NCBI GenBank assembly: GCA_002441095.1
Contig: DJVG01000043.1
Coordinates: 2,254 to 66,253 of the forward strand
Source: Elusimicrobia bacterium UBA6262
Lineage (GTDB): Bacteria; CAYTYR01; UBA6262
Reading direction: 5' to 3'
DNA length: 64,000 nucleotides
Shown piece by piece: positions 34,489 to 54,910 of this stretch. The notes under the pieces are model-generated. The model was not told where the DNA came from and made no database searches. It was given only the letters and a program-made list of their open reading frames with translations. The position numbers and the translations under genes were made by a program. Every line of letters starts with the position of its first letter. Position 1 is the first letter of the stretch.

Positions 34489-34492
34489 AACG

Positions 34493-38009: not shown

Positions 38010-38018
38010 TAATTCCTT

Positions 38019-39496: not shown

Positions 39497-39497
39497 T

Positions 39498-40967: not shown

Positions 40968-41968
40968 TTCATCCCTGCTCCTGAAACATTATAGGCAAAC
41001 TCAGCGATACTAAAATCCAGAGCCGCTATCCTCTTTAATTGGAAAATATCATCTACTGCTGTATTCAAACCGGCCGCGCGTCCAAAACTGCACAGGCCGC
41101 CGCTTTTTTTAATTTTTTCCAGCACTTTGCCGTCACCCGAGCTGAAAGGCAAAGCAAAAGCGATCTCCTGCTGGCTGGTTAAATTCCTGATGAAAGCTAT
41201 TGACTCGGTTATTTCCTGATCCACCTGCTGTTCACTTAGTTCTGTCATATCGCTGTGGGAAACGGTATGCGCCCCCAGCTCAATACCAGCGCCGGCTAAT
41301 AATTTCAGATCTTCAGCTGTAAGGTAAAACTCTCCGGATACCAGTTGTTTGCTGACCCCTAAAGTTTTACTGATCGCCCCAACTGCTCCCAGGCGTTCAG
41401 CGGCAGGCAACTTACGGATCGCCTCAAGTAAGCCAATGATCGACTGGTATTTCTCTTCATCCCCACTTAAATCCAGGGGCACAGTTTTATTGCCGACACT
41501 AATCAATGCTTTTTTCCCGCCTGCTTCATCCAAGATATAATACAACTGGTGCTGCCAATGGACCGCTTCTAAAAAACTTTTTGGGAAAAATATCGTGACC
41601 GGTACTTCATATTTTTTTATGACCGGCCAGGCCAGGATCAAAAAATCCTTGTATCCATCATCAAACGTTACTACGGCACAGTTAGCCAGGCTCTCTCCTG
41701 ACTTTTTCCGCCGAACGCATTCTGCCAGGCTGACCAGGCGATATTTTCTTTTTAAATACTTTATTTGTTTTTCAAAGTTGCTGACGCTTACCGTCAATCC
41801 TCTCAACCGGAAAGAAGAACTGACCCGGGGCAGGACAGAGTCGTCTACCACCCGGTGATATACCAGTATCGGGAATCTTCCCTGCCAGCTCTGCCACCGG
41901 CGGACTAATTCAAAAATACCGGCATAATATCCGGCGGCCAGGATCATACTCTTAACTACTCTCCCCAC
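40964..41968 (-). CDS. polysaccharide deacetylase (NodB homology, CE4)
   Basis: AVVTFDDGYKDF motif 1, HTVSHSD motif. Confidence 0.75.
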   Translation of the reverse strand: MGRVVKSMILAAGYYAGIFELVRRWQSWQGRFPILVYHRVVDDSVLPRVSSSFRLRGLTVSVSNFEKQIKYLKRKYRLVSLAECVRRKKSGESLANCAVVTFDDGYKDFLILAWPVIKKYEVPVTIFFPKSFLEAVHWQHQLYYILDEAGGKKALISVGNKTVPLDLSGDEEKYQSIIGLLEAIRKLPAAERLGAVGAISKTLGVSKQLVSGEFYLTAEDLKLLAGAGIELGAHTVSHSDMTELSEQQVDQEITESIAFIRNLTSQQEIAFALPFSSGDGKVLEKIKKSGGLCSFGRAAGLNTAVDDIFQLKRIAALDFSIAEFAYNVSGAGMK

Positions 41969-41980
41969 TTTTTGCCTCTC

Positions 41981-43144
41981 TTACTGCCGTAATTTATTCC
42001 AGATAATTCCGGCTATGATCCCGGAAACATTTTTATCCCGGTTGATAAAAATATTATTAAACATGTTTTTCCGTTGTTCGCGGAAATTATCCCGCCCTTT
42101 TACCGCCTTATCTATTTCTTCGAGCATCTCTGGGACAGTCTCTACTACTTCTCCCAAAACCCAGCTTAAATAATACCGGTTATTACGCCAAACAACTTTT
42201 TTGGTATTGAAGAACAGGACCGGCTTATCAAAATACAGCCATTCAAAAACACTGCTGCTGACATCAGTAATATAAATATCCGCCGCGGCCATATAATCCA
42301 GGTTGGTCTTTGACCGTTCAGCAATGACGATATCTGGCAGGTTGCCCAACTTCGCCAACAGCGGCTGTATTCTCCTGGCCAGATCAGGATGAGGCATAAA
42401 GATTATATTATATTTCCTGCCGGCACTTAAAGCTTCAAGTAATTCCCTGCCCTGGTCAAAAAAGGAAGTTACCTGCGGGTCGAAATGAGGATTATACATT
42501 ACCACCGGCTTAGTCTCCCGGAACAGGGCTGACGCGCCGGCCTGGTGATAGCGCAAATAATCCAGTTTGGCATACCCGGCGATAACTGCGTTACTAAGAG
42601 GGCCTACTCTTTCTGCCAATTCCTGCTTTTCCTTTTCTCCCGGTAATAGCAGCAGGTCATAATCATGCAAATGCGGGTCATCGCCGAATTTGCGGTTGAC
42701 AAAGCCATGCGGCAAATATATCCAAAAAGTCTTAACTCCTAACTGCCGGAAAACATTATCAAAAAAATCAGTGACCACTACTGCTTTGGGCAGGTGCATG
42801 CGCAAACGGCACAAAAAAACAAACCAGTTAACATTAAAATCTATGCGGTTATAACCTGGATGGCGTATTTTAATAAATTTAACGCGGTTGGGAATGGCCG
42901 CCAGTTCCGCTGCGATGATCTTACTGGCCTCCGCGCTGGTGCTCAGCACCACTACTTCATTTTCAGATTGCAGATTGGAGAGCTCAATAGCGACAAAGAG
43001 CGAATGATAGATATGATGGATAGACTGGTTATAGCAAAAATAGATCCGCGGCGGTAGCGGCCGGATTTTCCGGTAAAGGTTGAGGCTGCCGGTTAAAAGA
43101 ATAGCTATAATTCTTATTACTATTTTTTTTACGCTTTTATGCAT
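41981..43144 (-). CDS. CDP-glycerol glycerophosphotransferase (TagB/TagF family)
   Basis: LPHGF, YNPHFDP, DIYITDVSSSVFEWLYFDKPVLFF blocks characteristic of Glyphos_transf. Confidence 0.7.
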   Translation of the reverse strand: MHKSVKKIVIRIIAILLTGSLNLYRKIRPLPPRIYFCYNQSIHHIYHSLFVAIELSNLQSENEVVVLSTSAEASKIIAAELAAIPNRVKFIKIRHPGYNRIDFNVNWFVFLCRLRMHLPKAVVVTDFFDNVFRQLGVKTFWIYLPHGFVNRKFGDDPHLHDYDLLLLPGEKEKQELAERVGPLSNAVIAGYAKLDYLRYHQAGASALFRETKPVVMYNPHFDPQVTSFFDQGRELLEALSAGRKYNIIFMPHPDLARRIQPLLAKLGNLPDIVIAERSKTNLDYMAAADIYITDVSSSVFEWLYFDKPVLFFNTKKVVWRNNRYYLSWVLGEVVETVPEMLEEIDKAVKGRDNFREQRKNMFNNIFINRDKNVSGIIAGIIWNKLRQ

Positions 43145-44534
43145 GGGCTCCTTCAGGACTCTCTGCCATAAGTTTAGGCAAAGCTATTACCATGGCAGCC
43201 ATGAACCAAAAAGGTTCCATGATGCGGATCAGGATGAATGATTCCGCGGAAAAAGCATGGAATAATAAACCGACGAACCCGGCGATAAAGCCCAGACTTA
43301 AGCCCTGGGCAAAGTTATCCCCTTTGGTTAAGATAAAAGTTTGCTTGCCAGCCCGGTAGATACGGAACATCAGCCAAAGATAAATAGCAAAGCCGATCGT
43401 GCCTACTTCCCTGATGACCCGGGCATACTGGTTATCAACGACAGAACCAGCCGGGACACCGTATCCCAAAAACGGCCGTTTGACCCATTTATTAAAAGCG
43501 TAGGTCCAGCTCTCCACCCGGCTCACTGCTGACTGGTCCAGCGTGAATTTTTTCCCCAGGACAGCATATTGCTGCGACCCGGGCACATCCTTAATAAAAG
43601 TCTGGGCAATGCGCTCTTGGACTTGCCGGGGGAACAGGACCGGCATCAGCAAGAACAGCGAAAGCAAAGCCAGCAGGAGCATCCCTTTTTTTCTCCTGGT
43701 CAATAAAACCAGGGTCAAGCACATCGGGAAAAAAGCGATCCAGGCACCGCGGGAAAGAGTAAATAAAAAAGGAGGAATGATACAGCTGATCACACCCAGC
43801 AGCAGGAGTTGTCGTTTCCAGGCAGTTTCATACAAGAATAATCCCAAAGCCAGGCTCATCATCAGCAGCAGGTATCCGCCTAGCGTATTAGCCTCCCCGG
43901 TCTTTCCTTCAAACGGAGCAGAGACCCGCGCCAAATGCTGGACATTGAGCCAGGCATAGAGGCAAACCGCTACGCAGGTAAGTAACAGGAAAAACACAAA
44001 TATTTTGGATTGCTTGACGGAGCGCAGGTTGTTGGTCACCATAAAGAACAGAATATAATATTCTACATACTTTAAGAGATAAAAAAAGCTTTGCTGGAGT
44101 TTAACATTCCCTTCCAGCGCCCCCAGCAGGGAAGCTACGACACTAACAGTAAAATATAAAATGATCGGGGTATTTAAAGACGTAGGTTGTAATAGTCCTG
44201 TTTCCTTATTAATGGCTATCCTGGCCAGCCAGCCGAAAAAAATAACAAATATCAACGCGTCATCAAACCTGAAGGTCACACTGCGGCCGGTGATCGCCCC
44301 GAGATAAAACTCAGGCGATAACAGCATGGCCAGGATCAGGATGATCAACGCCAGGTCAGGCTTGAGTAAAGCGACCAGGAATAAGCTGAGAGATATTATT
44401 ATGAGTACGGGAAGATAAGGAGGAAGTTTGTAGACCATTACGCCGATAATCAGGAAAATGACCAATAATAATATATATATTATGCCGCTGAGGCGCGTTT
44501 GTCCGCTATTGGAGGCCATGTCATTGTCACGCAT
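43137..44534 (-). CDS. O-antigen polymerase/ligase-like membrane protein (Wzy_C family)
   Basis: 465 aa, ~11 TM with large loop; position between TagF-like and Wzc-like. Confidence 0.6.
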   Translation of the reverse strand: MRDNDMASNSGQTRLSGIIYILLLVIFLIIGVMVYKLPPYLPVLIIISLSLFLVALLKPDLALIILILAMLLSPEFYLGAITGRSVTFRFDDALIFVIFFGWLARIAINKETGLLQPTSLNTPIILYFTVSVVASLLGALEGNVKLQQSFFYLLKYVEYYILFFMVTNNLRSVKQSKIFVFFLLLTCVAVCLYAWLNVQHLARVSAPFEGKTGEANTLGGYLLLMMSLALGLFLYETAWKRQLLLLGVISCIIPPFLFTLSRGAWIAFFPMCLTLVLLTRRKKGMLLLALLSLFLLMPVLFPRQVQERIAQTFIKDVPGSQQYAVLGKKFTLDQSAVSRVESWTYAFNKWVKRPFLGYGVPAGSVVDNQYARVIREVGTIGFAIYLWLMFRIYRAGKQTFILTKGDNFAQGLSLGFIAGFVGLLFHAFSAESFILIRIMEPFWFMAAMVIALPKLMAESPEGAHA

Positions 44535-46477
44535 TAGTTTGTTTTCAACTGCTTATCCGGATTTTTATCAGCTTTGGATTCATTATATTTATATTTATAA
44601 TAATAGGGATAATTGGCCACGATCTCGGTGCCTGGTTTAATATGATTTAAAACTATACCGATGATCTTCCCGCCAGCAGATTCGATCTGCGATTTTGTCC
44701 GGAGCAGGGCGCTGCGGGCGGTTTTGCCCGCTTCGTATACCAGGAGTACCCCGTCTACTTTGTCGGCCAGCAGCATCGCGTCAGCGATCGGCAGGACCGG
44801 AGGAGAATCAAAGAGCACAAAATCAAACTTTCTTCTCAATTCAGCCATTAATTTTATCATATCCTGGGAATTGAGCAGTTCTGCCGGCCGCGCCGGTATG
44901 TGCCCCGCTCCTAATATAAATATGTTTTCAATACCTGGCGTTTTCAGGATATCCTCCATGCTCATGCTGCCCAGCATAATATCAGAAATCGTGCTTACCA
45001 CTTTACCCAAATCCATAACTTTGGTTAGGACTTCATTTAATCCCGGCTCCTCATTCAAGCCAAAGCTCTTAGCCACGGTCGGCCGCCTCAAGTCAGAAGA
45101 GACCAGCAGGACCTTGGCCCCGGTTTGGGCGATAGTCAATCCCAAATTAGTGATCAAGGTGCTTTTACCTTCGCGCGGACCGGCGCTTGTCACCATCAGG
45201 GTCTTCAGAGCGGGACTTAATTTGAGGTTAGTGCGGACCGACCGGTAGGCCTCTGCTAAAATAGAATTAGGCTCATAATGGACAATGAGGCGCATATAGT
45301 ATTCGCTGAGATGCCTTTTCCGGGAGGGGAAAAATGATAATAAAGGCCGTTTATAAAAAGGTCCGTCGTCATCCCCCCATTTGCTTTTCATTGAAGGGAC
45401 GACCCCAACCACCGGCAGTTTGGCAAAATTTTCGACATCTTCAATGGTCCCGATCGAGGTATCCAGGTTCTCTACAATAAAAGCGAAGATCAATCCCAGG
45501 ATCAATCCGATCAATCCCCCTAACAGCAGCCCGGTCCTCCGGTCAGTCCCCATGATCGTGATCGGATGGACAGCCGGGTCAACGATAGTGACATCACCGA
45601 CTTTTTGGGCCTCGGTGATCCTGGCTTCTTCCAGTTTTTCTTTCAGCATGGAATAGAGTTTCTGGTTTACTTCCACTTCCCGGCTCAGCCGGGCATATTC
45701 CAGCTCTTTTTGCGAAAAACCTTTCAGCTGGTACTCTAACTCCCTGATCTGTTCCTTTAGCTGCTGTACCTGCGGATGTTTTTCCGTGTACCTTTGCAGC
45801 AGGGAAATAAGCTCTACCTGCAGATCCACCAGTTTTTGCTGGATCGGGGAATTCATTTTAATATTCCCGGTTTGATTCTGGAATTTACTTAACTTTTCTT
45901 CTGCCTCCAGTAAACGGCTTTCCAAAGCCCCCAATTGTTCTTCAATGAACTGGCGGGTAGCCTGAGCCTGTTTTTTCTTTTGGAACAGGTTTTCCTCGAC
46001 ATATGCCTGCGCCACCATATTGGCCAGCTCCATCGCCCCTGCAGGGTCAGCGGCTTTCGTCGTGATCTGGATAATATTAGTAGCCCGGATGGTTTCAGCA
46101 AATACATTATTCTGTAGTTCCGTGATCACGGAATTTATTTTCTCCAGCGGGCTGTCAGCGGTGATCATTCCCAGGCGCAGGGCCGCCTTTTTGATCACCG
46201 GGAATCCTTTTATATCCTTGGCGGCTGATTCCATGACATCGGCTGGGTTTACTTCCACCCATTCAGTCAGCAATCCAGCCAGGGTCTTTCGTTCTTCTAT
46301 TTTAATAGTAGCTTTAGCTTGATAAGAGGGCACTTGACGGGAAACATAAAGCCAGGCGAATACTATAGCAGCTAAAGTGGTGAGAAAAATGATCAATCTT
46401 CTTTTGCGGAGAATACGTATGTAATCGCTGAGGCTCAATGGGTACTGTGGCAAAGATATCTCCTGGTATAATTTCAT
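44534..46477 (-). CDS. polysaccharide co-polymerase / BY-kinase (Wzc-like: Wzz domain + P-loop tyrosine kinase domain)
   Basis: N-terminal TM + Wzz region + coiled coil + second TM; C-terminal Walker A SAGPREGKST, Walker A' LLVSSD, Walker B FVLFDSPPV. Confidence 0.8.
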   Translation of the reverse strand: MKLYQEISLPQYPLSLSDYIRILRKRRLIIFLTTLAAIVFAWLYVSRQVPSYQAKATIKIEERKTLAGLLTEWVEVNPADVMESAAKDIKGFPVIKKAALRLGMITADSPLEKINSVITELQNNVFAETIRATNIIQITTKAADPAGAMELANMVAQAYVEENLFQKKKQAQATRQFIEEQLGALESRLLEAEEKLSKFQNQTGNIKMNSPIQQKLVDLQVELISLLQRYTEKHPQVQQLKEQIRELEYQLKGFSQKELEYARLSREVEVNQKLYSMLKEKLEEARITEAQKVGDVTIVDPAVHPITIMGTDRRTGLLLGGLIGLILGLIFAFIVENLDTSIGTIEDVENFAKLPVVGVVPSMKSKWGDDDGPFYKRPLLSFFPSRKRHLSEYYMRLIVHYEPNSILAEAYRSVRTNLKLSPALKTLMVTSAGPREGKSTLITNLGLTIAQTGAKVLLVSSDLRRPTVAKSFGLNEEPGLNEVLTKVMDLGKVVSTISDIMLGSMSMEDILKTPGIENIFILGAGHIPARPAELLNSQDMIKLMAELRRKFDFVLFDSPPVLPIADAMLLADKVDGVLLVYEAGKTARSALLRTKSQIESAGGKIIGIVLNHIKPGTEIVANYPYYYKYKYNESKADKNPDKQLKTN

Positions 46478-46493
46478 TATACGTACAGGATGT

Positions 46494-47447
46494 CTACCAA
46501 TTATGAATGGTCTGCGTCGTATACAATCCCTGGGCTATCGGACTCAATATCTGCGTCATGACATAGCTGACATTGGAAATGAAGGTTCTGGGTATATAGA
46601 CAATATCTTCCGGCTCCAGGAGCATGTTCTGGCTCAGGTCGCCCTTCTTCATGGCCTTTACCAGGTCGAGACGGTAACCGACCGGCTTTTGCAAACCACC
46701 CCTGATCAAAACTACGCTGGACATGACCGCGTCCTTCGTATAACCATTGGCCAGGGCGACCAGTTCCAGGACGCTGCTTTTACCGGTTACCGCATAAACT
46801 CCCGGTTTATTCACTTCGCCCAGCAAAATAACTTTCTTGCCGCCGATCTTCCTGATAGTGACCGATACTTCGGGATACTTAATATAATCTTTTAATTTTT
46901 CCGTGATCAACTGGTCCAGCTGGCTCACGCTTAAACCCTCTGCCTGCACATCACCGATCAGCAGGACCGCTATTTTACCGTCTTGGCGCACGGCTGCTTC
47001 CTGGTCCAGGTCCTTATTCTGCCACACCGAAATAAAGAGTATATCATCTACCCCGATTATATACTCAGCACGGGCACTGGCAGCAGCCGGTGCTGACGAT
47101 ATGGCGACGGTATTATTTTGCGGTAGCGGGCCATCGGCCTGGGCTAAGGCCAGATCTTCCTTATCTTTGATCTTCATTTCTGCTTTTTTTATAAAATCCT
47201 GGGCATAAGCAGTATAGATCAGCTTAAAATTCCGCTCTAGTTCGATCACCTGGCTAAAGTTTACTATCGCTGAAGAATAACTGCCTTTTTGCATATTCTC
47301 TTTGCCAGCCTGGTAATAGGCTTCAATTTGCGATAATTTTTCCTGCTCCCCCACATTCATTCCCTGGGCTGGGCTTGAAAAGGAACAATTTACCCAAATT
47401 GCCAGCAGTAATAAACACTGCCACGGGTGAACTTTACGGTTCATCAA
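46494..47447 (-). CDS. polysaccharide export protein (Wza/EpsE-like, SLBB domains)
   Basis: signal peptide; YIIGVDDILFISVW...KIAVLLIGDVQAEGLSVSQL polysaccharide-export-protein motifs. Confidence 0.7.
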   Translation of the reverse strand: MMNRKVHPWQCLLLLAIWVNCSFSSPAQGMNVGEQEKLSQIEAYYQAGKENMQKGSYSSAIVNFSQVIELERNFKLIYTAYAQDFIKKAEMKIKDKEDLALAQADGPLPQNNTVAISSAPAAASARAEYIIGVDDILFISVWQNKDLDQEAAVRQDGKIAVLLIGDVQAEGLSVSQLDQLITEKLKDYIKYPEVSVTIRKIGGKKVILLGEVNKPGVYAVTGKSSVLELVALANGYTKDAVMSSVVLIRGGLQKPVGYRLDLVKAMKKGDLSQNMLLEPEDIVYIPRTFISNVSYVMTQILSPIAQGLYTTQTIHNW

Positions 47448-47542: not shown

Positions 47543-48373
47543 ATGACTAAAAATATACTGGAAACTTCCCATCTTATTAAAGATTTTCGCCCTGCAGCTT
47601 CCTTTTCCGAGTGGGCCAAATTTAATTTTACCCCACCGGCTCCGACCAGGGCAATGAACGATCTATCTTTTTCCCTGGAAAGAGGGAAGATCCTGGGGAT
47701 CCTCGGCCCTAATGGCGCGGGGAAAACCACCCTGTTAAAGACCATCGCTACCCTTATTCTCCCCACTTCCGGCACCTTGTCATTTTTTAATGCTGGCCCC
47801 ACGGCTATAACCTGGACCAGCCAGGGCCTCACCAACGAACAGACCGAATGGCAATTAAAGTCCAGTATCGGCTTGACGATAGATGAAGAAAGAAGCTTTT
47901 ACTGGAGATTATCAGGACATCAAAACCTGGAGTTTTTTTCCGCTCTCTATGGGCTCGATGCAGCGGCAACTAGCAAACGCATTAACGAATTATTTTCCCT
48001 TTTTGGGATCGACTATGGGGCTAAAAGATTTGATTCTTACTCCTCCGGCATGAAAAAATGTTTTTCCCTGATCCGGGCCTTGCTCCACAACCCGTCATTG
48101 CTGCTCTTGGACGAACCTACTAAAAGCCTGGATTATGCCACTGCTGCCAGGCTCAAAGAATTTATCAAAACAAAACTCGTGCAGGCTGACGGGAAAACAG
48201 TCATTTTTACTACCCATAACCTGAATGAAAATCTCGATTTTTGCGATCTATTCATGATCCTGCGCCAGGGACAGGTCGCTGCTTTTGGCTCGTTGGCTCA
48301 TTTAAGGCAACAAATAAGCAATCCAGCCGCGACTATAGCGGATATATTCCTGCATTTTACCAGGGAGGCCTGA
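47543..48373 (+). CDS. ABC transporter ATP-binding protein
   Basis: GILGPNGAGKTT, YSSGMKK, LLLDEPT. Confidence 0.85.
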   Translation: MTKNILETSHLIKDFRPAASFSEWAKFNFTPPAPTRAMNDLSFSLERGKILGILGPNGAGKTTLLKTIATLILPTSGTLSFFNAGPTAITWTSQGLTNEQTEWQLKSSIGLTIDEERSFYWRLSGHQNLEFFSALYGLDAAATSKRINELFSLFGIDYGAKRFDSYSSGMKKCFSLIRALLHNPSLLLLDEPTKSLDYATAARLKEFIKTKLVQADGKTVIFTTHNLNENLDFCDLFMILRQGQVAAFGSLAHLRQQISNPAATIADIFLHFTREA

Positions 48374-48374
48374 G

Positions 48375-49181
48375 ATGTGGCATAAACCCTGGGCTTTTAT
48401 CAAAAAAGACTTCCAAAATGTGGCCAGTTACAAACTGGCGCTCTGCCTGAACTTTTTTAGCATTTTTATTGGGATCCTCAGTTACTTTTTTATTGATAAA
48501 TTATTCGGCCAGAAAATTGTGCCGCACTTAGCAGAATTTGGCGTTAACTATTTTGCTTATATTCTGCTCAGCATGGCTTTTTACGGCTATATAGGCGTAG
48601 GCATGGGTTCATTTACCAACCAGATCAGGAATGAGCAATTATTAGGCACCTTGGAAGCTACCCTGCTTACTCCCACCAAGGTCAGCACTATTCTCTTTTC
48701 TATGGCCCTCTGGAACCTGATCTTAGCCAGCCTTGATGTAATGGTGTATATCCTTTTAGGAGTTTTCCTTTTTAAACTGAACTTTTCGAATGTAAATATT
48801 TTGTCCTCATTAGTGATCTTATTCCTGACTATTATTTCTTTCAGCGGCTTGGGCATACTGGCGGCTTGTTTTATCATGATCTTTAAAAGGGGAAATCCGA
48901 TCGGCGGGGTCATTACCGGCATTGAGGGATTAATCAGTGGAGTTTATTTCCCGGTGAGCATCCTGCCTGGCTGGTTGCAGACAGTAGCGATGTTTTTCCC
49001 GATCACTTATGCGATCCGGGCCATTGAATTGGCAGTCTGGCAAGGATATGCGGTAAGCCAGCTATACCGGGAGATCCTGGCTTTAGTTCTTTTTTCCCTG
49101 CTCTTGCTGCCATTGAGTTTGGTACTATTCAGGTACAGCCTCAGAAAAGCCCGGCAAGACGGCAGTCTCGCTCAATTTTAA
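48375..49181 (+). CDS. ABC-2 family transporter permease
   Basis: 268 aa, 6 TM; TGA/ATG coupled to upstream ATPase. Confidence 0.75.
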   Translation: MWHKPWAFIKKDFQNVASYKLALCLNFFSIFIGILSYFFIDKLFGQKIVPHLAEFGVNYFAYILLSMAFYGYIGVGMGSFTNQIRNEQLLGTLEATLLTPTKVSTILFSMALWNLILASLDVMVYILLGVFLFKLNFSNVNILSSLVILFLTIISFSGLGILAACFIMIFKRGNPIGGVITGIEGLISGVYFPVSILPGWLQTVAMFFPITYAIRAIELAVWQGYAVSQLYREILALVLFSLLLLPLSLVLFRYSLRKARQDGSLAQF

Positions 49182-49212: not shown

Positions 49213-51354
49213 TCAATCAAAAATACGGCAGGAATAGTGCAGGTATATCTCGTCAGCAGACCGCTGATATGGCGCAGGAGATACGCGGAACCCGGCTTGT
49301 TGATACAAATTCAAGGCCGGGATAGCTTTTTTGTTAACAAACAAACCAACTTCCCTGGCTCCGGCTGCAGTCGCCCTCACAATCGCTTCCTGTACCAGTT
49401 TCCTGGCTATGCCCAAACCACGGAACATTGGTTTTGTTTCCAGACCGAATATCAGCCAAAGTTTTTCGTCTTTTTCGTATTTGAAAATAGTCAAAGCACC
49501 AGTTATCGTCTTGTTCTTAAGCGCTATTAGACAATATCCTTCTTTTTTGAGGTCAATGATCAATTGCTCTATCTCCTGGACAATCATAGTAGCATATACG
49601 CTGCGCAGGGATTTCTTATCGGCTAATTCAGCTGCCCGGATAATTATATCTTTCCCCGCTATTTTTCCCATTAAACGCCGATAACTCCTCATTTTTTGAA
49701 AAGCGGAAAGGAGATTTATCCGGCGCGCCGCAATTTTATTAATAAATAAAATAAACCTATAGCTTTTTTCTCCCAATGCCCGCCGCGCATAATCAGCAAA
49801 ACCAACTTTAGAAACTTCTTGTTGGCTGATCAAAGCCATTTCTTGTTTATTAGGGAAAATAGCCTGCCAAATAAATTCCAGCCGTTTTCCCCACTTTTCG
49901 TTCATCCCCATGGTTACTAATCCCAGATTAACCTGCCGGCCATAAAAACCATGCTTAATAAATCCTTTCAGGAACCGTCGTTCAAAGATACTTAGTTTTT
50001 TTGGCTTTAACTTCACCAAGCATTCCTGGGGCACCGGCACACCGAAAACCTCATACACCAGTTCCAAGCCAAAATATACATACCTGTCCAGCCCAAGGCT
50101 AAAGGATTCTCTTGCCAGAAAATCCCAATCCAGGCTGCTGCCCTTCAATTGCAGGAACTTAAAGAGATCATATAAAAGCATTCCCGGAGTATACGCATGC
50201 TGAAAAGCATGCAGGCATAAATAAATGACCTGATGCGTATCAGCTAAAGTCAGGGCTGGGACTTCATCCACATAAACGGTCGTGGCCGACTGCCAGATAT
50301 TCTTCATTGTAAATTTTCCCAGGACTTCCTGCTCAAAAGGGAAGAGATTTAATAGATGCCAATAAAGATGAACAAACCGGGGTGTTCCTTGCGGATCAGT
50401 GTACATTAAGCTATTGCGATAGGGATTTGCTTGCAGCGAGGAAAAGTCTTTAATAGCAAAAGGCGCGGTGTAATTTAATTCCTGCAGTATCCTGTCAGCC
50501 GCAGGCAGGTCTTCCCGGGCAACTAAAATATCTACATCTGTTATGGGGCGCAAACCAATGTCCGGATACAGCAATTCTGCCAGGACCGGCCCCTTAAAAA
50601 CAAGGATCTTGATCCCCTGCCGGCGGAAAGCTGCCAATATCTCCCCGGTCTTTTTAAAAATTAAAACATTATTGGTAAGAGTTTGGTAATAACTGCTCCT
50701 GAATCGCTCTAATACCACTGCCGGGATATTCAGTCGTGCTGTCCCCCAAGCTTCTAAGGACTTGTATATCAGCGGCGCTACTTTTTCCTCTATGGCTCGC
50801 TGTAAAAAATATTCCCATTTAAATCCCGGAGCAGACAATTTTTCTATCAGCGGACCATTTTCTTCCCGCTCACTGGGAATATTAACCAGCAGTTTTTCGT
50901 ATATATCATCAGCGTCACCCAGCTTCTTAAATATTGCTGCCAGGGGATAAAAATAAGGCCCTAACTGGGCCAGCCTAAACCAGAAATAGTTAGCGCTACC
51001 GTCTATATTCCTGTGCTTACCGTTCCGTTCAATAGCAATGACTTTACCCAATACATCTTTTGCCTCTACTAGCGGATCCGGATGAATATAGGCATCGCCC
51101 TTGGTCACCAGGACAGTCTGCTCGCCTTGATCTAGCTTTTTTATTACCCGGTGAACATATAATTTACCGGCACTGGTTTTACAAAAAACAATATCCCCTG
51201 AATTGATCATAGCTATTTCAACCGGCTCTACTACTATGGTATCACCAGTGCGCATAAATGGGCGCATACTGCCGCCGGCGACCTGGAATTTTAACCTGTT
51301 TTGGTCCGTCAGTATCTCCTGGCATATCCTGGAGAACTCTATCTGCGGATTCAT
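49213..51354 (-). CDS. tri-domain protein: N-terminal S24/S26 (LexA/signal-peptidase-like) Ser-Lys peptidase domain, central PF14907-type nucleotidyltransferase, C-terminal GNAT acetyltransferase
   Basis: GGSMRPFMRTGDTIVVEP (S24/S26 nucleophile motif); KGPVLAELLYPDIGLRPITDVDILV (NTP_transf_5-like); GLGIARKLVQEAIVRATAAGAREVGLFVNKKAIPALNLYQQAGF (GNAT motif A). Confidence 0.6.
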   Translation of the reverse strand: MNPQIEFSRICQEILTDQNRLKFQVAGGSMRPFMRTGDTIVVEPVEIAMINSGDIVFCKTSAGKLYVHRVIKKLDQGEQTVLVTKGDAYIHPDPLVEAKDVLGKVIAIERNGKHRNIDGSANYFWFRLAQLGPYFYPLAAIFKKLGDADDIYEKLLVNIPSEREENGPLIEKLSAPGFKWEYFLQRAIEEKVAPLIYKSLEAWGTARLNIPAVVLERFRSSYYQTLTNNVLIFKKTGEILAAFRRQGIKILVFKGPVLAELLYPDIGLRPITDVDILVAREDLPAADRILQELNYTAPFAIKDFSSLQANPYRNSLMYTDPQGTPRFVHLYWHLLNLFPFEQEVLGKFTMKNIWQSATTVYVDEVPALTLADTHQVIYLCLHAFQHAYTPGMLLYDLFKFLQLKGSSLDWDFLARESFSLGLDRYVYFGLELVYEVFGVPVPQECLVKLKPKKLSIFERRFLKGFIKHGFYGRQVNLGLVTMGMNEKWGKRLEFIWQAIFPNKQEMALISQQEVSKVGFADYARRALGEKSYRFILFINKIAARRINLLSAFQKMRSYRRLMGKIAGKDIIIRAAELADKKSLRSVYATMIVQEIEQLIIDLKKEGYCLIALKNKTITGALTIFKYEKDEKLWLIFGLETKPMFRGLGIARKLVQEAIVRATAAGAREVGLFVNKKAIPALNLYQQAGFRVSPAPYQRSADEIYLHYSCRIFD

Positions 51355-52211
51355 TAAAACTGGCTCCTGACGAAATCTACTATATTTTTATCCGGTACAA
51401 ATCCTATTTCCCAAGCCGGGATTTTTCTGGCAATTTCTACGCAAAAAGATAAGGCGAATTCGATCCCCTTTTTATCCCAAAATGGCAGGAAAGCAGTAGC
51501 CGCGATCCGGGCTGCGGTCTCTGCCGGAGAAAGAGCTTTCAAGCAGTTTTTGTTCGCTTTTTTAAGAAAATAAATTCCCTTTAATGGCGCTCTATCCGCG
51601 CAACACACCTGGCTTTTGCCATACCAGGGGGTACCGAAAATATATGGGGTCCCCTGCCACTGCCTGACCAACACCCGGTCATCATTAAGGATGGTGACTC
51701 CCTTTTCTTTTTCCCATAATTTTGCCATGGTACTCTTCCCGGCGCCGGAAGCTCCGAGAAAAAGCAACCCCCGTCCCTGGTCATTAATGCCACAGCTATG
51801 GGTTAATATACCTACCCCTAGAGAAAAAAGATGAATGAAATAAATTTCATCAAAAGGATATTGGAAAGGATAAATATTTAATTTCTTGGCTTGAGGATTT
51901 AAATAAATATCACCGGAGGAAAAGTTTTTCTTTAATACAACGGTTTGATAGGGATGGGAGCCGAAATCCAGGTTATAAAAATGCAGGATATTCTTGCCCC
52001 AGGCAGTCCCGAAACACCAGGTAGCGCCAGAGTCAAAATTTATTTTTCCCATCTTGATCAACGGGAAGCTGCCTTGATGAATACGCAGTACTGCCTGACA
52101 ATTACCAGCTGTTTGGAAAGGCCTATATCTTGCCTTAATATTAATCTCTTGATCATCAGCTGAGACCAGAGCAATAGTAACGCCGCCAATTGTCACCTTG
52201 AAATTTGGCAA
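51354..52211 (-). CDS. HPr-kinase-related P-loop kinase (HprK C-terminal-domain-like; candidate peptide kinase)
   Basis: LFLGASGAGKST P-loop followed by NDDRVLV as in HprK/P C-domain. Confidence 0.6.
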   Translation of the reverse strand: MPNFKVTIGGVTIALVSADDQEINIKARYRPFQTAGNCQAVLRIHQGSFPLIKMGKINFDSGATWCFGTAWGKNILHFYNLDFGSHPYQTVVLKKNFSSGDIYLNPQAKKLNIYPFQYPFDEIYFIHLFSLGVGILTHSCGINDQGRGLLFLGASGAGKSTMAKLWEKEKGVTILNDDRVLVRQWQGTPYIFGTPWYGKSQVCCADRAPLKGIYFLKKANKNCLKALSPAETAARIAATAFLPFWDKKGIEFALSFCVEIARKIPAWEIGFVPDKNIVDFVRSQF

Positions 52212-52232: not shown

Positions 52233-52391
52233 TTAAGAGCCGCTTGCTTTATTAACACATGAGTCAGGCCCTTTACAGCCAAATTGCGCTTTTAGGTCCC
52301 CGGTGGCGGCCTTGCAAGCCGTTAAAACTGCTTCTTCAGGAGACAACTTGACTTCTTTTATTTGCGGTGTTTGATACTCTTTTTTGTCCAT
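52233..52391 (-). CDS. candidate RiPP precursor peptide (52 aa: MDKKEYQTPQIKEVKLSPEEAVLTACKAATGDLKAQFGCKGPDSCVNKASGS)
   Basis: ATG at 52389-52391 preceded 5 nt upstream by GGAGGAGG; 3 Cys in C-terminal half, C-terminal Ser; directly downstream of PqqD+rSAM/SPASM; overlaps rSAM 3' end by 56 nt. Confidence 0.5.
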   Translation of the reverse strand: MDKKEYQTPQIKEVKLSPEEAVLTACKAATGDLKAQFGCKGPDSCVNKASGS

Positions 52392-53463
52392 TTTTTCCTC
52401 CTCCGAATTCTTTAGCCCTGAGCTGGGCAATTTGGCACACAAAATCAACGATAAACTCATCCTCGCCGCCTTCCAGGCTGGACCAGGCTGGGCAGAGATT
52501 GCAAAAAGCACTTTGCTGACACTGTCCGCAGGGTGAGTCCTTTTTCTGGCGCGTCAGCGAAGATATCTTAGCAAAACATTCATCCCATCCTTCACGGAAA
52601 GAACCAGCCAGTAAATCAAAGCTGGGTGAGCGCAACATATCGCACAGCCGTAATTGGCCATAAGAGTCTACGGCAAAAGAGCTTTTTCCCGCATTACAGG
52701 TAAAAAGTTTCTCCGAATACGCGGCCTGGCCATATTGGCCATTGAATTCCTGCCAGCCCCGGGAGCGCTTCTGGTCCTCAATATCAAGTTGAACGACCTC
52801 GGCCGGAGAAAGCCGGCAGAAAATATTATCTTTCTGTCCGTTTATCCTGGGCCAGATCATAGCGTCGAACCGGAAATCTATTTTTAATTCTTGTTCCACA
52901 TAATTTTTGATCGGCCAGAGTTCCGGCCGGTTCTGGGTAGTAACCATGGTTTTTAATTTCAATGGAATTTCTCTGTCCAGCAACAACCTGATCCCGCGCT
53001 GGCAGAGATCCAGTGCTTCCCCGTTGCCAGTCATGGCTTTATAAGTTTCCCTGGATATGCCATATAAACTGATCTCTACTAAAAAAGGCGGATAATCCCG
53101 CAGGACATCGGCTATCTCCGGAGTCAATAATGTGCCATTAGTAAAAAGAGTGACAATAAGCCCTTTCTTTTTAGCATATAAATAAAGCTCAATAAAATCT
53201 TCCCTGAGCAAGGGTTCGCCGCCAGTGATCAACAGGTATAAGCACCCGGCTGCTGACAGTTTATCCAAGATCGTTTTAACCTGGCTGGTGTTTAATTCGG
53301 TTTTCCCTGGATCAGTTGTCTCATAACAGTGGACACAATGCAAATTGCAGCGCTGGGTTAAAGTGAATGTACCGCACAAGGGGGTTCTGGCAAGGATCGC
53401 TTTATCGTGCAGAGCAGCGGAAAATTCCGCATAACTGAGTTCCTGGACTTGCGAACACGGCAT
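52336..53463 (-). CDS. radical SAM/SPASM-domain peptide-modifying enzyme
   Basis: CNLHCVHC (CxxxCxxC); C-terminal SPASM Cys cluster CGQCQQSAFCNLCPAW. Confidence 0.8.
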   Translation of the reverse strand: MPCSQVQELSYAEFSAALHDKAILARTPLCGTFTLTQRCNLHCVHCYETTDPGKTELNTSQVKTILDKLSAAGCLYLLITGGEPLLREDFIELYLYAKKKGLIVTLFTNGTLLTPEIADVLRDYPPFLVEISLYGISRETYKAMTGNGEALDLCQRGIRLLLDREIPLKLKTMVTTQNRPELWPIKNYVEQELKIDFRFDAMIWPRINGQKDNIFCRLSPAEVVQLDIEDQKRSRGWQEFNGQYGQAAYSEKLFTCNAGKSSFAVDSYGQLRLCDMLRSPSFDLLAGSFREGWDECFAKISSLTRQKKDSPCGQCQQSAFCNLCPAWSSLEGGEDEFIVDFVCQIAQLRAKEFGGGKNGQKRVSNTANKRSQVVS

Positions 53464-53762
53464 TATAATGCCCTGATTTCTTCAATTAATTTTTTAGTCT
53501 CCAACTGCCCGATGAAAGTGCTTACCTCTTTCCTGGCAGTCTCAGGATTAACAGAAAAAGAACTAACCAAGGCGTCAATAATATGAGCCAGGCTTCTCTT
53601 GCCGTTAATATTGCTCCAGACAAAAGCACCCACTTCATTTAAGGTATAAATACACTTAAGGTCAGCCACTTTGTCCCGGACCGGCACGAGAATTACTTCA
53701 CCGGCGACCTGGCGAAAAACTATATTCTCATTTTTAGCAAATATTTTAGCTAAATCGTTCAT
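53463..53762 (-). CDS. PqqD-family protein (RiPP precursor recognition element)
   Basis: 99 aa; IVFRQVAGEVILV...IYTLNEVGAFVWSNINGKRSLAHIIDAL...FIGQLETKKLIEEI matches PqqD family consensus layout. Confidence 0.75.
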   Translation of the reverse strand: MNDLAKIFAKNENIVFRQVAGEVILVPVRDKVADLKCIYTLNEVGAFVWSNINGKRSLAHIIDALVSSFSVNPETARKEVSTFIGQLETKKLIEEIRAL

Positions 53763-53782: not shown

Positions 53783-54910
53783 TTATTCCTTATCTAAATG
53801 CCTTATCCAAATAGCCGGCTCCGTAGCCAGGTTTACGCGTTTTTCCTCGGTGCACTCTTCGCCATTGCAAGTAGTGATTATTTTTACTACTGGACGAAGA
53901 ATATTATTACTATTCAGGGCGACCACCCTGGCTAATTCCTTGGTGTTCAACTCCACCAGGCTGCCGATCGGGAAAATACCGATCTTGTTTATCAGCACCT
54001 TGATCAATTTAGGATCATAAGCGCTTTTATTTTTCAGTATCTCCTGGATCGTTTCCCGGGCCTGGAATTCGGTGCGGTAGGTTCTCCGGTGCATCATGGC
54101 TTCATATATATCCAGGATACCGACTATAGAACTATATTCATGTATCTGGCTGCCCTTCAAGCCATCGGGATAACCGGAGCCGTCCAGATGTTCATGGTGT
54201 TGCCGCGCCACTTCAAAAACTACATCATCCAGGCCTTTGATACTGGATAACATCTTGGCCGCAAACAAGGTATGGTTTTTTGTCCTCTCAAAATCTTCTT
54301 TGCTTAATTTATTGGCCTGGCTTATTATTTCCAGGTAATGAGCCATCCCCACATCATGCAATAAAGAGGCGGTCCCGAGTTCTTTTAACCGGTATGGTTC
54401 GTATCCTAATTCCAGGCCGATCATTATGGATAAAATACAGACATTGGTTACATGACAAAATATATATGTGGTTTGCGAAGAAACATCCGGATTTAACGCC
54501 AGTTCGGTCATTTTCTCCGGATGCGCCCTGGCTAGATCGATTATCTTGTCTACGATCGCGGAGATCCGGTGAATATCAATAAGCTCATAGATCGCATCTT
54601 CTTTCATTATTTCTTGCATTAAGGCCAGCGCATCATTATAGGCTTTTTCACATTCAGTGAAAGCAGCGACATCTATATTTTGTCTTATAGGCTGCGGGCT
54701 GGGCGTAATTATTTCTGCTTCTGCCGGTGCGGGAGCAGGTTGAAAAACAGTTTCATGATGAGCAACTATGGGAGTGTCTAGTGGAGGAGCGGCGGAGACA
54801 GGTAATGGCTGGATACCCTTATCTGTTTTTTTTCTTTCCTCGATCTTTTTGAATATATCCGACATTTTAACCATGATAGTATTATATATACCATAAAATG
54901 TTCTTGTCAA
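53783..54910 (-). CDS. HD-GYP domain c-di-GMP phosphodiesterase
   Basis: HDVGMAHYLE ... HHEHLDGSGYPDGL. Confidence 0.85.
   Translation of the reverse strand: MTRTFYGIYNTIMVKMSDIFKKIEERKKTDKGIQPLPVSAAPPLDTPIVAHHETVFQPAPAPAEAEIITPSPQPIRQNIDVAAFTECEKAYNDALALMQEIMKEDAIYELIDIHRISAIVDKIIDLARAHPEKMTELALNPDVSSQTTYIFCHVTNVCILSIMIGLELGYEPYRLKELGTASLLHDVGMAHYLEIISQANKLSKEDFERTKNHTLFAAKMLSSIKGLDDVVFEVARQHHEHLDGSGYPDGLKGSQIHEYSSIVGILDIYEAMMHRRTYRTEFQARETIQEILKNKSAYDPKLIKVLINKIGIFPIGSLVELNTKELARVVALNSNNILRPVVKIITTCNGEECTEEKRVNLATEPAIWIRHLDKE

What the first reader, a model, noticed from the sequence alone, without database searches (positions are those of the whole stretch)
49213..51354. Unusual tri-domain fusion: S24/S26-type Ser-Lys peptidase + nucleotidyltransferase + GNAT
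One 713-aa polypeptide carries three domain signatures. The first is a LexA/signal-peptidase-type motif, GGSMRPFMRTGDTIVVEP. The second is a central PF14907-like nucleotidyltransferase block, LLYPDIGLRPITDVDILV. The third is a C-terminal GNAT motif A, GLGIARKLV…AGF. I do not recall this architecture as a described family. Sitting beside a radical SAM/PqqD pair, it could combine leader removal with two tailoring reactions, nucleotidylation and acetylation. Such a fusion would fix the stoichiometry of the steps.
Basis: partly seen in the sequence, partly recalled or inferred. Interest (0 to 1): 0.75.

Follow-up and report, generated by a model that had tools for sequence, protein, structure and literature searches.

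The report
Three-enzyme fusion for maturing a small peptide
A real 713-residue protein fuses a cytoplasmic signal-peptidase-like protease, a nucleotidyltransferase and an acetyltransferase, and it most likely finishes a small cysteine-containing ribosomal peptide encoded three genes away, in an uncharacterised but widespread gene cassette that always sits inside polysaccharide-export loci.

Summary
The ORF is real (minus strand, 49213-51354), and Pfam, NCBIfam, a structure model and conserved catalytic motifs confirm all three domains.

- The protease is not a Ser-Lys enzyme. It has the Ser29-His68-Asp87(-Asp93) set of Sec11/SipW/archaeal (S26B) signal peptidases. These residues are invariant in 79 relatives and the lysines are not. 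It lacks a membrane anchor.
- The domain combination is not unique. At least 17 protein clusters carry the same three domains in the order protease-GNAT-NTase. About 54 carry protease-NTase and 5 carry protease-GNAT, and fully split versions exist. Only this protein and one 67%-identical homologue have the order protease-NTase-GNAT.

Context supports a peptide-maturation role. The operon is HD-GYP-like protein, PqqD, radical SAM/SPASM, a 52-aa precursor, a ScmC/HprK-like P-loop protein, then the fusion. The precursor belongs to a new family of at least 144 members: 118/120 have a YxxP leader motif, 104/120 have three Cys and 107/120 end in Ser.

The kinase-like protein, PF14907 NTase and C-terminal Ser parallel the lasso-peptide PsmK/PsmN tailoring pair. 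All 11 loci examined lie in Wza/Wzc/Wzy polysaccharide clusters.

Verdict: a new variant of a known kind. All chemistry is inferred.

The parts
49213..51354 (-). Tri-domain gene (713 aa): Sec11-like protease, PF14907 nucleotidyltransferase, GNAT
   Evidence: ORF and translation; Pfam and NCBIfam; the same order in the homologue P0002.
50995..51354 (-). Protease domain, aa 1-120; proposed catalytic residues S29, H68, D87 and D93; no N-terminal membrane anchor
50845..50994 (-). Linker, aa 121-170, with two weakly hydrophobic helices modelled at low confidence
   Evidence: Model helices at aa 120-144 with pLDDT 51-58. Stand-alone relatives carry a similar amphipathic or hydrophobic helix after the catalytic domain.
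49765..50844 (-). NTP_transf_5 (PF14907) nucleotidyltransferase domain, aa 171-530; K254-G255, R269, D273-x-D275, H382, H386 and D396 conserved
49216..49764 (-). GNAT module, aa 531-713: a helical extension plus the acetyltransferase core; motif A R645-G-x-G648 and Y684 conserved
   Evidence: Pfam Acetyltransf_1, _7 and _10. The best NCBIfam match is RimI, E=6e-5, far below its cut-off. Conservation across 24 modules. The module aligns to residues ~140-315 of the permuted relatives.
51354..52211 (-). ScmC/HprK-related P-loop protein (285 aa), the putative peptide kinase
   Evidence: Partial NCBIfam matches to HprK_rel_B (E=5e-8) and ScmC (E=1e-4), and Pfam Hpr_kinase_C (E=0.002). Orthologues carry precomputed PF27840 ScmC and PF07475 hits. 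Conserved H138, Walker A G153-K159-[ST] and D177-D178.
52233..52391 (-). Precursor peptide gene (52 aa): MDKKEYQTPQIKEVKLSPEEAVLTACKAATGDLKAQFGCKGPDSCVNKASGS
   Evidence: GGAGGAGG lies 5 nt upstream of the ATG. Homologous small ORFs sit at the same position in 9 loci. The profile finds 144 family members.
52336..53463 (-). Radical SAM/SPASM-type peptide maturase (375 aa); its 3' end overlaps the precursor gene
   Evidence: Pfam Radical_SAM; NCBIfam similarity to MftC, AlbA, PqqE, ScmE/F and GeoRSP maturases, all below cut-off.
53463..53762 (-). PqqD-family leader-binding protein (99 aa)
   Evidence: Pfam PqqD E=3.5e-16; the closest NCBIfam model is the lasso PqqD chaperone.
53783..54910 (-). 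HD_5 (HD-GYP-like) protein, first gene of the operon; the true start is probably downstream of 54910
   Evidence: Pfam HD_5 E=2.9e-26. The gene is conserved directly upstream of PqqD in L001 and L010, in the same neighbourhood a few genes further upstream in L007, and at the locus edge about 6.4 kb upstream of the cassette in L012.
54881..54910 (-). Perfect sigma-70 consensus (TTGACA, 18 nt, TATAAT) at the head of the operon
   Evidence: 12/12 match. This is a consensus match only.
47543..49181 (+). ABC-2 type transporter (ATPase 47543-48373, permease 48375-49181), convergent with the fusion gene
   Evidence: Pfam ABC_tran and ABC2_membrane. An ABC-2 transporter (at least its ATPase gene) is called adjacent to the cassette in L001, L002-4, L007, L008 and L012/L013, and two un-annotated ORFs occupy the corresponding position in L006.
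43137..47447 (-). Wza-like exporter (46494-47447), Wzc-like co-polymerase/tyrosine kinase (44534-46477) and a Wzy_C-domain protein (43137-44534)
   Evidence: Pfam and NCBIfam. The same genes flank the cassette in every locus with enough sequence.
22798..43144 (-). Rest of the polysaccharide biosynthesis locus: WecA-like, PIG-L, EpsA-like ATPase, WbqC, glycosyltransferases, methyltransferases, DegT, two further radical SAM genes, flippase, deacetylase
   Evidence: Pfam and NCBIfam. Much of the same gene set is present in L008.

Best explanation
The protein is a multifunctional late-stage maturation enzyme of a ribosomal-peptide (RiPP-type) pathway. One minus-strand operon encodes an HD-GYP-like protein, a PqqD leader-binding protein, a radical SAM/SPASM enzyme, a 52-aa precursor, a ScmC/HprK-related P-loop protein and the fusion.

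Proposed sequence of events; every step is inferred unless marked otherwise:
1. PqqD binds the conserved YxxPxI leader motif and presents the peptide to the radical SAM enzyme, which cross-links the three-cysteine core.
2. The HprK-like protein phosphorylates the conserved C-terminal serine.
3. The PF14907 domain decorates that phospho-serine, by analogy with PsmN, which is required for adding hexose to the phospho-serine of pseudomycoidin.
4. The cytoplasmic Sec11-like Ser-His-Asp protease domain removes the leader, probably just before the first cysteine in the conserved (E/D)AVL(T/S)xC segment.
5. The GNAT domain acetylates the product, most simply the newly exposed N-terminus.
6. The adjacent ABC-2 transporter exports it.

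Shown here: the domains exist, their catalytic motifs are conserved, the parts recur fused, permuted or as separate neighbouring genes, and the precursor family exists with its invariant features. Fusion keeps the parts at 1:1 stoichiometry and may channel the peptide between them.
For: Domain identities and conserved catalytic residues.

Operon structure: 1-nt overlaps between PqqD and rSAM and between ScmC and the fusion, plus a strong ribosome-binding site before the precursor.

Precursor family: of 120 listed members, 118 have [YFW]xxP near the N-terminus, 104 have exactly 3 Cys, 104 have the xVL[ST]xC junction, and 107 end in Ser. The leader is conserved and the core is hypervariable.

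Rosetta-stone logic:
- The same parts occur as protease-GNAT-NTase, protease-NTase and protease-GNAT fusions, as protease-GNAT followed by a separate NTase gene, and as entirely separate genes. Every one of these arrangements whose locus was examined lies beside ScmC, PqqD, rSAM and a precursor.
- A PqqD-NTase fusion also exists (P0006).

Literature precedent:
- HprK homologues phosphorylate the C-terminal Ser of lasso precursors.
- PsmN, described as belonging to a family of uncharacterised nucleotidyltransferases and needing its DxD motif, is required for hexose addition on that phosphate.
- Such NTases are sometimes fused to the lasso leader protease B2 (PMC8498205; PMC6993621).

The ScmC-like protein keeps the His, Walker A and DD motifs. 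The protease-GNAT junction is the commonest fusion partner order. RimI is the best NCBIfam match for the GNAT.
Against: - No biochemical data exist for any member.
- The ScmC-like protein matches HprK only weakly (NCBIfam and Pfam E-values of 5e-8 to 2e-3 over about 60 residues; PDB HprK E about 1).
- I could not verify by sequence that PsmN belongs to PF14907; only the descriptive name matches.
- The nearest structural relatives of the NTase domain (MenT toxins, ANT(2''), LnuA) transfer nucleotides, not sugars, so the chemistry at step 3 is open.
- The putative cleavage site does not look like a classical Ala-X-Ala signal-peptidase site.
- The GNAT is poorly modelled, and its acceptor could be a lysine or an amino sugar.
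- The strict placement inside polysaccharide loci is not explained by a simple secreted-peptide model.
- One locus (L011) has protease-GNAT but no NTase within the 2.4 kb of contig that follows.
Confidence: 0.55

Rival explanations
1. Peptide-polysaccharide coupling. The matured peptide is not a free product. It is joined through its C-terminal (phospho)serine to the polysaccharide made by the surrounding locus, as a primer, cap or anchor. The NTase domain would create the phosphodiester-linked first sugar or an activated nucleotidyl intermediate. The Wzy_C-family protein or the ABC-2/Wza machinery would then handle the conjugate.
For: - All 11 loci examined put the cassette inside or directly beside Wza/Wzc/Wzy/flippase/glycosyltransferase clusters, across relatives down to about 30% identity.
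- The C-terminal Ser is near-invariant.
- PsmN-dependent chemistry yields Ser-O-phospho-hexose.
- FKRP, a phospho-alcohol transferase acting on glycans, is among the fold matches.
- The Wzy_C protein's best NCBIfam match is a putative O-glycosylation ligase family.
Against: - It rests on co-localisation only; there is no fusion or chemistry linking peptide to glycan.
- The one apparent protease-NTase-Wza fusion (P0060) looks like a read-through artefact. It has an internal lipoprotein-like signal, and the neighbouring rSAM gene is fragmented.
- Co-localisation could equally reflect co-regulation in biofilm formation.
Confidence: 0.12
2. The NTase and GNAT domains act on the polysaccharide or its sugar precursors, for example N-acetylating an amino sugar made by the DegT aminotransferase or nucleotidylating a sugar phosphate. 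Only the protease domain, if any, deals with the peptide.
For: The locus encodes DegT, PIG-L and WbqC amino-sugar enzymes and many glycosyltransferases. GNATs commonly acetylate amino sugars; weak NCBIfam matches include a dTDP-4-amino-sugar acyltransferase.
Against: - The NTase and GNAT are fused to the protease, or lie next to it, and to ScmC/PqqD/rSAM/precursor in every locus. They travel with the peptide cassette rather than with the sugar genes, whose content differs between loci.
- A PqqD-NTase fusion ties the NTase to leader-peptide recognition.
- PF14907 enzymes are tied to peptide tailoring in lasso clusters.
Confidence: 0.13
3. The protease domain is not a leader peptidase. It works like LexA, UmuD or lambda cI as a self-cleaving or regulatory module, or like the catalytically inactive SipA as a chaperone, releasing or controlling the attached enzymes.
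Against: - The catalytic set is Ser-His-Asp as in Sec11, not the Ser-Lys of self-cleaving S24 proteins, and it is invariant, which argues against an inactive chaperone.
- No conserved Ala-Gly or Cys-Gly self-cleavage loop was noticed.
- Stand-alone 130-215-aa versions, with nothing attached to release, occur in the same cassettes.
Confidence: 0.08
4. The fusion is an annotation or assembly artefact, arising from two or three adjacent genes joined by a sequencing error.
For: Split versions exist in other genomes, and one other fusion in the family (P0060) looks artefactual.
Against: An independent genome at 67% identity has the same uninterrupted 721-aa ORF with the same domain order. The ORF is continuous with no frame change.
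Confidence: 0.02

Closest known systems
Lasso-peptide tailoring pair: HPr-kinase homologue (PadeK/PsmK) plus 'uncharacterised nucleotidyltransferase' PsmN, including NTase-B2 protease fusions (paeninodin and pseudomycoidin clusters)
   Same: Both have a PqqD-type leader-binding protein, an HprK-related P-loop protein, an NTase with an essential DxD motif, a precursor ending in Ser, and an ABC exporter. In both, the NTase is sometimes fused to the leader protease (PMC8498205; PMC6993621).
   Different: There is no lasso cyclase (asparagine-synthetase-like C protein) and no transglutaminase-type B2 protease among the neighbours. The core is a three-cysteine peptide paired with a radical SAM/SPASM enzyme. 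The protease has a Sec11-like serine protease fold, and a GNAT is added. The cluster sits in a polysaccharide locus of uncultured anaerobes.
SynChlorMet (Scm) cassette of NCBIfam/TIGRFAMs: ScmC (TIGR04249), ScmD (PqqD-like, TIGR04248), ScmE and ScmF (radical SAM/SPASM, TIGR04250 and TIGR04251)
   Same: Both contain a ScmC-type P-loop protein, a PqqD homologue and a radical SAM/SPASM enzyme. Homologues of the window's protein carry the Pfam ScmC family PF27840. Locus L014 has a PqqD, two adjacent rSAM genes and a ScmC arrangement next to a stand-alone protease and NTase.
   Different: All window proteins score far below the curated cut-offs: ScmC 21.8 against 125, ScmD 32.8 against 100, ScmE/F 63-65 against 400. 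Only one rSAM gene is adjacent. As far as I recall (not checked here), the Scm family descriptions name no precursor, protease, NTase or GNAT.
Signal peptidase I of the ER/archaeal/SipW type (MEROPS S26B; Sec11, SEC11A/C, SipW)
   Same: The Ser (SMxP), His (HR) and Asp (GD ... D) boxes align, the score exceeds the TIGR02228 cut-off, and the core fold is the same.
   Different: There is no N-terminal transmembrane anchor in the fusion or in any of 120 stand-alone relatives. It is fused to enzymes that need cytoplasmic co-substrates (NTP and acetyl-CoA). It is encoded in a peptide-maturation operon rather than acting as a housekeeping secretion enzyme.
GNAT N-acetyltransferases that finish RiPPs or proteins (RimI; microviridin MdnD and albusnodin AlbT from the literature)
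   Same: It has a GNAT core with motif A and a conserved Tyr. RimI is the best NCBIfam match. Literature precedent exists for a GNAT encoded in a RiPP gene cluster, the albusnodin lysine acetyltransferase AlbT.
   Different: The score is far below the RimI cut-off (23 against 86 bits). The module carries a roughly 60-residue helical extension and is fused to the protease or NTase. The acceptor is unknown.

Membership tests
Peptidase S26B (Sec11/SipW/archaeal signal peptidase I) | Catalytic Ser in the SMxP box, His in the HR box, Asp in the GD box | tested here: met
   S29, H68, R69 and D87 are invariant and D93 is acidic in 67/79. They align to SEC11A S56, H96, D116 and D122 (the SEC11A numbering is from my own count of the sequence).
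Peptidase S26B (Sec11/SipW/archaeal signal peptidase I) | Score above the curated NCBIfam cut-off for TIGR02228 | tested here: met
   64.9 bits against a cut-off of 51.85.
Peptidase S26B (Sec11/SipW/archaeal signal peptidase I) | N-terminal transmembrane anchor placing the catalytic domain outside the cytoplasm | tested here: not met
   No 19-residue hydropathy window reaches 1.6 in the fusion. None of 120 stand-alone relatives has a hydrophobic segment before the catalytic Ser.
Peptidase S26B (Sec11/SipW/archaeal signal peptidase I) | Cleaves secretory signal peptides after small residues at positions -1 and -3 | not testable with these tools
   No activity data. The conserved (E/D)AVL(T/S)xC junction of the precursors is only loosely compatible with this rule.
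Ser-Lys dyad peptidases (S24 LexA/UmuD; S26A bacterial signal peptidase) | Conserved Lys general base | tested here: not met
   K72 and K73 vary (K/R/G/I) across 79 relatives, and an invariant His sits in the box where S26A enzymes carry the Lys.
PF14907 NTP_transf_5 (Pol-beta-fold nucleotidyltransferase) | Pfam score above gathering threshold and the G[SG] ... DxD metal-binding motif | tested here: met
PF14907 NTP_transf_5 (Pol-beta-fold nucleotidyltransferase) | Same family and activity as PsmN (hexose addition to phospho-Ser) | not tested
The only link is its published description as a member of a family of uncharacterised nucleotidyltransferases, echoing Pfam's name for PF14907.
GNAT acetyltransferase superfamily | Pfam score above threshold, motif A (R/Q-x-x-G-x-G/A) and a conserved Tyr | tested here: met
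   Acetyltransf_1 at 49 bits against 20.7. R645 is conserved in 24/24, G646 in 21/24, G648 in 22/24 and Y684 in 24/24.
SynChlorMet (Scm) cassette | ScmC, ScmD, ScmE and ScmF each above their NCBIfam cut-offs, with two radical SAM/SPASM genes | tested here: not met
   Scores of 21.8/125, 32.8/100, 62.6/400 and 64.6/400, with one adjacent rSAM gene. The system is related to the Scm cassette but is not a member of it.
Lasso peptide biosynthetic cluster | Asparagine-synthetase-like cyclase (C) and transglutaminase-like protease (B/B2) | tested here: not met
   Neither domain is present among the ten neighbouring proteins scanned.
Radical SAM/SPASM RiPP (sactipeptide/ranthipeptide-like) | Cys-containing precursor next to a PqqD/RRE protein and an rSAM/SPASM maturase | tested here: met
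   SPASM is detected by Pfam in the orthologues.
Radical SAM/SPASM RiPP (sactipeptide/ranthipeptide-like) | Thioether (or other) cross-links actually formed | not testable with these tools
   Requires mass spectrometry or NMR of the product.

The most novel reading that the evidence does not exclude
The cassette makes a small radical-SAM-cross-linked peptide whose conserved C-terminal serine is phosphorylated. The PF14907 domain then links it by phosphodiester to the first sugar of the locus's polysaccharide. This would be a ribosomally made peptide serving as covalent primer, cap or anchor of an exopolysaccharide. A cytoplasmic descendant of the Sec11 signal peptidase would act as its leader peptidase, and the GNAT would cap its N-terminus.
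Probability: 0.1. Interest if true: 0.9.

Novelty: new variant of a known kind. Interest (0 to 1): 0.6.

Why it matters
If the model holds, four things follow:
- It adds a new fold class of RiPP leader peptidase: a soluble, cytoplasmic Ser-His-Asp relative of the eukaryotic/archaeal signal peptidase. PGAP-style annotation currently labels these proteins 'signal peptidase I'.
- It supplies a candidate precursor family (at least 144 members) for cassettes related to the SynChlorMet (Scm) cassette, which as far as I recall (not checked here) is described without a known precursor.
- It extends the kinase-plus-PF14907 tailoring of a C-terminal serine from lasso peptides to radical-SAM peptides.
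- It reveals a strict, unexplained association between a peptide-maturation cassette and Wza/Wzc/Wzy polysaccharide loci in Omnitrophota, Desulfobacterota-like and Nitrospirota MAGs. This hints at a peptide role in biofilm or capsule biology.

The fused, permuted and split versions form a natural Rosetta-stone series that tells experimenters which proteins to co-express.

Tried and rejected
- The search for related loci with broad family alignments failed because no stretch was conserved enough. A narrow alignment found only two genome loci, so the organism of the window remains unidentified.
- The afdb50 fold library was unavailable.
A PDB sequence search gave only P-loop-level matches.
- Literature searches for PF14907, NTP_transf_5, SynChlorMet, ScmC, and the combination of PqqD, radical SAM, exopolysaccharide, nucleotidyltransferase and HPr kinase returned nothing relevant. 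A search for S26 or signal-peptidase-type RiPP leader peptidases returned only incidental matches.
- The precursors match no NCBIfam model.
- I rejected P0060 (protease-NTase-Wza fusion) as Rosetta-stone evidence. It has an internal lipoprotein-like signal sequence, and the rSAM gene in that contig is broken, which suggests assembly errors.
- I rejected the Ser-Lys dyad.
- I rejected a lasso-peptide assignment because there is no cyclase or B2 protease.
Full report
**1. The observation**

The window has an uninterrupted ORF at 49213..51354. It has an ATG start and encodes 713 aa. All three quoted motifs are present.

Pfam finds three domains:
- Peptidase_S24, aa 17-88, 25.0 bits, just above the gathering score of 23.3.
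- NTP_transf_5/PF14907, aa 177-438, E=1.4e-46.
- GNAT families, aa 592-695, Acetyltransf_1 E=8.6e-13.

NCBIfam is more specific for the N-terminus. Residues 23-108 score 64.9 bits against TIGR02228, the archaeal/ER-type signal peptidase I, above its cut-off of 51.85.

A 67%-identical 721-aa protein from another metagenome-assembled genome has the same domains in the same order and the same neighbours (P0002; loci L001 and L005). The fusion is therefore not an assembly accident.

**2. The protease domain is Sec11-like, not Ser-Lys**

I aligned 79 relatives of the N-terminal domain.
- S29 is present in 72. Five of the rest are N-terminal truncations and two have Cys.
- M30, H68, R69 and D87 are invariant.
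- P32 is present in 76 and D93 is acidic in 67.

A profile of the family hits human SEC11C and SEC11A at E=6e-9 and 1.7e-8. It aligns S29, H68 and D87 (and D93) onto the Ser, His and Asp residues of the signal peptidase complex.

Unlike true signal peptidases, the protein has no transmembrane anchor. A profile search also finds 141 stand-alone relatives of 102-215 aa, several annotated 'signal peptidase I' by their sources. In the 120 of these that were listed, the catalytic Ser sits at a median position of 32 and no hydrophobic segment precedes it.

This is a soluble, presumably cytoplasmic clade of the S26B fold. That placement fits its fusion to enzymes that need NTP and acetyl-CoA.

**3. 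The other two domains**

NTase domain:
- K254-G255, R269, D273-x-D275, H382, H386 and D396 are invariant or nearly so.
- The model is confident, with block-mean pLDDT mostly above 90 for aa ~170-520 (two blocks at 85-88, one at 75).
- No solved structure is related at the sequence level.

GNAT module (aa 531-713):
- It includes a roughly 60-residue helical extension.
- Motif A (R645-G-x-G648) and Y684 are conserved in 24 homologous modules.
- The best NCBIfam match is the N-terminal acetyltransferase RimI, far below its cut-off.
- The GNAT part of the model is of low confidence because only one homologue aligned there.

**4. How unusual is the architecture?**

An exhaustive HMMER search of 1.84 billion representative proteins gave 210 hits below 1e-30. 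I classified the best 150 plus the word-search hits (157 sequences, of which 154 are relatives of the fusion) by domain order, and spot-checked the result with Pfam:

| Architecture | Count |
|---|---|
| NTase alone | 73 |
| Protease-NTase | about 54 |
| Protease-GNAT-NTase | 17 |
| Protease-GNAT | 5 |
| Protease-NTase-GNAT | 2 (the window protein and P0002) |

In an Omnitrophota genome (L006) the same parts are two adjacent genes, protease-GNAT (309 aa) followed by NTase (378 aa). In L014 and L015 the protease and NTase are separate genes.

The three-domain combination is therefore recurrent. What is rare is the permuted order.

**5. Genomic context**

On the minus strand the gene is the last of an operon:
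- HD_5 (HD-GYP-like) protein, 53783-54910.
- PqqD, 53463-53762.
- Radical SAM/SPASM enzyme, 52336-53463.
- A 52-aa ORF, 52233-52391.
- ScmC/HprK-related P-loop protein, 51354-52211.
- The fusion.

PqqD/rSAM and ScmC/fusion each overlap by one base. The small ORF has a GGAGGAGG ribosome-binding site 5 nt before its ATG. A perfect TTGACA-18-TATAAT match sits at the head of the operon, which is a consensus match only.

An ABC-2 transporter (47543-49181, plus strand) converges on the fusion gene. Downstream on the minus strand lies a polysaccharide locus of about 25 kb. It runs from a Wza-like gene at 46494-47447, through Wzc-like, Wzy_C, flippase, glycosyltransferase, methyltransferase, DegT, WbqC, PIG-L and EpsA-like ATPase genes, to a WecA-like gene at 22798-23838. 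Several of these resemble XrtA/PEP-CTERM-associated families but score below their cut-offs.

**6. The precursor family**

Homologous small ORFs occupy the same position in every related locus.

A profile of nine of them finds 144 proteins at E<=1e-3. The names attached are all 'hypothetical protein', and the named MAGs are Omnitrophota, Deltaproteobacteria, Thermodesulfovibrionia and Nitrospirae.

Among the 120 listed:
- 118 have a [YFW]xxP motif near the N-terminus, the type of motif bound by PqqD-like domains in lasso leaders.
- 104 have the junction xVL[ST]xC.
- 104 have exactly three Cys.
- 107 end in Ser (GS in 58) and 4 end in Thr.

The N-terminal half is conserved and the Cys-containing half is hypervariable. 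This is the usual leader/core pattern of ribosomal natural products. No NCBIfam model matches these peptides.

**7. Conservation of the whole system**

I examined eleven loci: the window, L001/L005, L002-4, L006, L007, L008, L010, L011, L012/13, L014 and L015. All put the protease and/or NTase beside ScmC, PqqD and rSAM. A precursor ORF was found in the nine of these loci that were scanned for one; L014 and L015 were not scanned. All lie within or next to Wza/Wzc/Wzy/flippase/glycosyltransferase genes.

Two gene orders occur:
- PqqD, rSAM, precursor, ScmC, fusion, with a divergent ABC transporter. This is the window's order.
- ScmC, PqqD, rSAM, precursor, protease-NTase, ABC.

The system is related to the NCBIfam 'SynChlorMet' (Scm) cassette, but the window proteins are far below those models' cut-offs.

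**8. Mechanism**

The closest studied analogy is in lasso peptides.
- HPr-kinase homologues (PadeK, PsmK) phosphorylate the C-terminal Ser of the precursor.
- PsmN, an 'uncharacterised nucleotidyltransferase' needing its DxD motif, is required for adding one or two hexoses to that phosphate.
- Such NTases are sometimes fused to the B2 leader protease (PMC8498205; PMC6993621).

Here the ScmC-like protein keeps a His, a Walker A motif and a DD motif in HprK-like order. The NTase keeps its DxD motif and the precursors end in Ser. A PqqD-NTase fusion (P0006) ties the NTase to leader recognition.

I therefore propose these steps:
1. Cross-linking by the rSAM enzyme.
2. Phosphorylation of the terminal Ser.
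3. NTase-dependent decoration of the phosphate.
4. Leader removal by the Sec11-like domain.
5. Acetylation by the GNAT, most simply of the new N-terminus, since protease-GNAT is the commonest junction.
6. Export.

All chemical steps are inferred. The nature of the NTase adduct, the cleavage site and the acetyl acceptor are open.

**9. What is unexplained**

The strict embedding in polysaccharide loci does not follow from a free secreted peptide. Co-regulation in biofilm formation is the conservative reading; the operon includes an HD-GYP-like gene and a PilZ-like gene lies at 22246-22713. A covalent peptide-polysaccharide link through the phospho-serine is the adventurous reading, and I give it about 10%.

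**10. Verdict**

The fusion is a rare permuted member of an uncharacterised, fairly widespread family. That family belongs to a RiPP-like cassette with a new type of putative leader peptidase and a newly recognised precursor family. I rate it a new variant of a known kind, with interest 0.6.

Noticed in passing
Its first 56 nt overlap the 3' end of the radical SAM ORF in another frame. It founds a family of at least 144 small 'hypothetical' proteins with a YxxP leader motif, three Cys and a C-terminal Ser.
   Followed up: yes
window 28826-29980 (-) and 26205-27671 (-); L008 14006-16589: A second radical SAM/SPASM gene lies inside the sugar part of the locus, near a 488-aa CehA/McbA-like metallohydrolase. 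A 476-aa protein with no Pfam hit and an adjacent rSAM/SPASM gene occupy the corresponding position in L008. It may be a second peptide maturase, as in the two-rSAM Scm cassette, or a sugar-modifying enzyme.
   Followed up: partly
window 35326-36771 (-); L012 19063-20523: A B12-binding radical SAM gene lies within the polysaccharide locus, and a similar gene is present in a distant related locus.
   Followed up: no
window 54881-54910 (-) and 47479-47530 (both strands): A perfect sigma-70 consensus (12/12) overlaps the first possible start codon of the HD_5 gene, so that gene probably starts further in. Back-to-back 11/12 and 10/12 promoter-like sites lie between the Wza-like gene and the ABC transporter.
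   Followed up: partly
P0158-P0277 (stand-alone relatives); L014 8001-8540; L015 8001-8558: Stand-alone, anchor-less Sec11-like proteins of 102-215 aa are named 'signal peptidase I' by several sources. The window domain itself passes the TIGR02228 cut-off. This naming is probably misleading, since the two looked up sit in Scm-like peptide cassettes.
   Followed up: partly
L010 10001-12670 (P0060): An 889-aa protease-NTase-Wza (Poly_export/SLBB) 'fusion'. It has an internal lipoprotein-like signal, and the radical SAM gene in the same contig is fragmented. It is probably a read-through from assembly error rather than a true fusion.
   Followed up: partly
L002-L004 1-5319; L012 3621-7676: In the second cassette type, a giant secreted protein with Peptidase_C25 (gingipain-like), fn3 and Laminin_G domains lies directly upstream of ScmC.
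   Followed up: no
P0006 (492 aa): A PqqD-NTP_transf_5 fusion protein. It links the NTase family directly to leader-peptide recognition.
   Followed up: no
window 22246-22713 (-) and 53783-54910 (-): A PilZ-like gene (TIGR02266-related) lies at one end of the locus and an HD-GYP-like gene at the other. This suggests control of the locus by cyclic di-GMP.
   Followed up: no
window 56502-56912 (-): A four-helix-bundle '23S rRNA intervening sequence protein' gene lies between the glutamate synthase large-subunit (57039-61592) and small-subunit (55002-56447) genes.
   Followed up: no
L005 (CAYTYR010000018.1): The record is titled 'uncultured Clostridia bacterium'. The locus encodes a Wza-type outer-membrane polysaccharide exporter and is syntenic with loci from Omnitrophota and deltaproteobacterial MAGs, so the taxonomic label is doubtful.
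   Followed up: no
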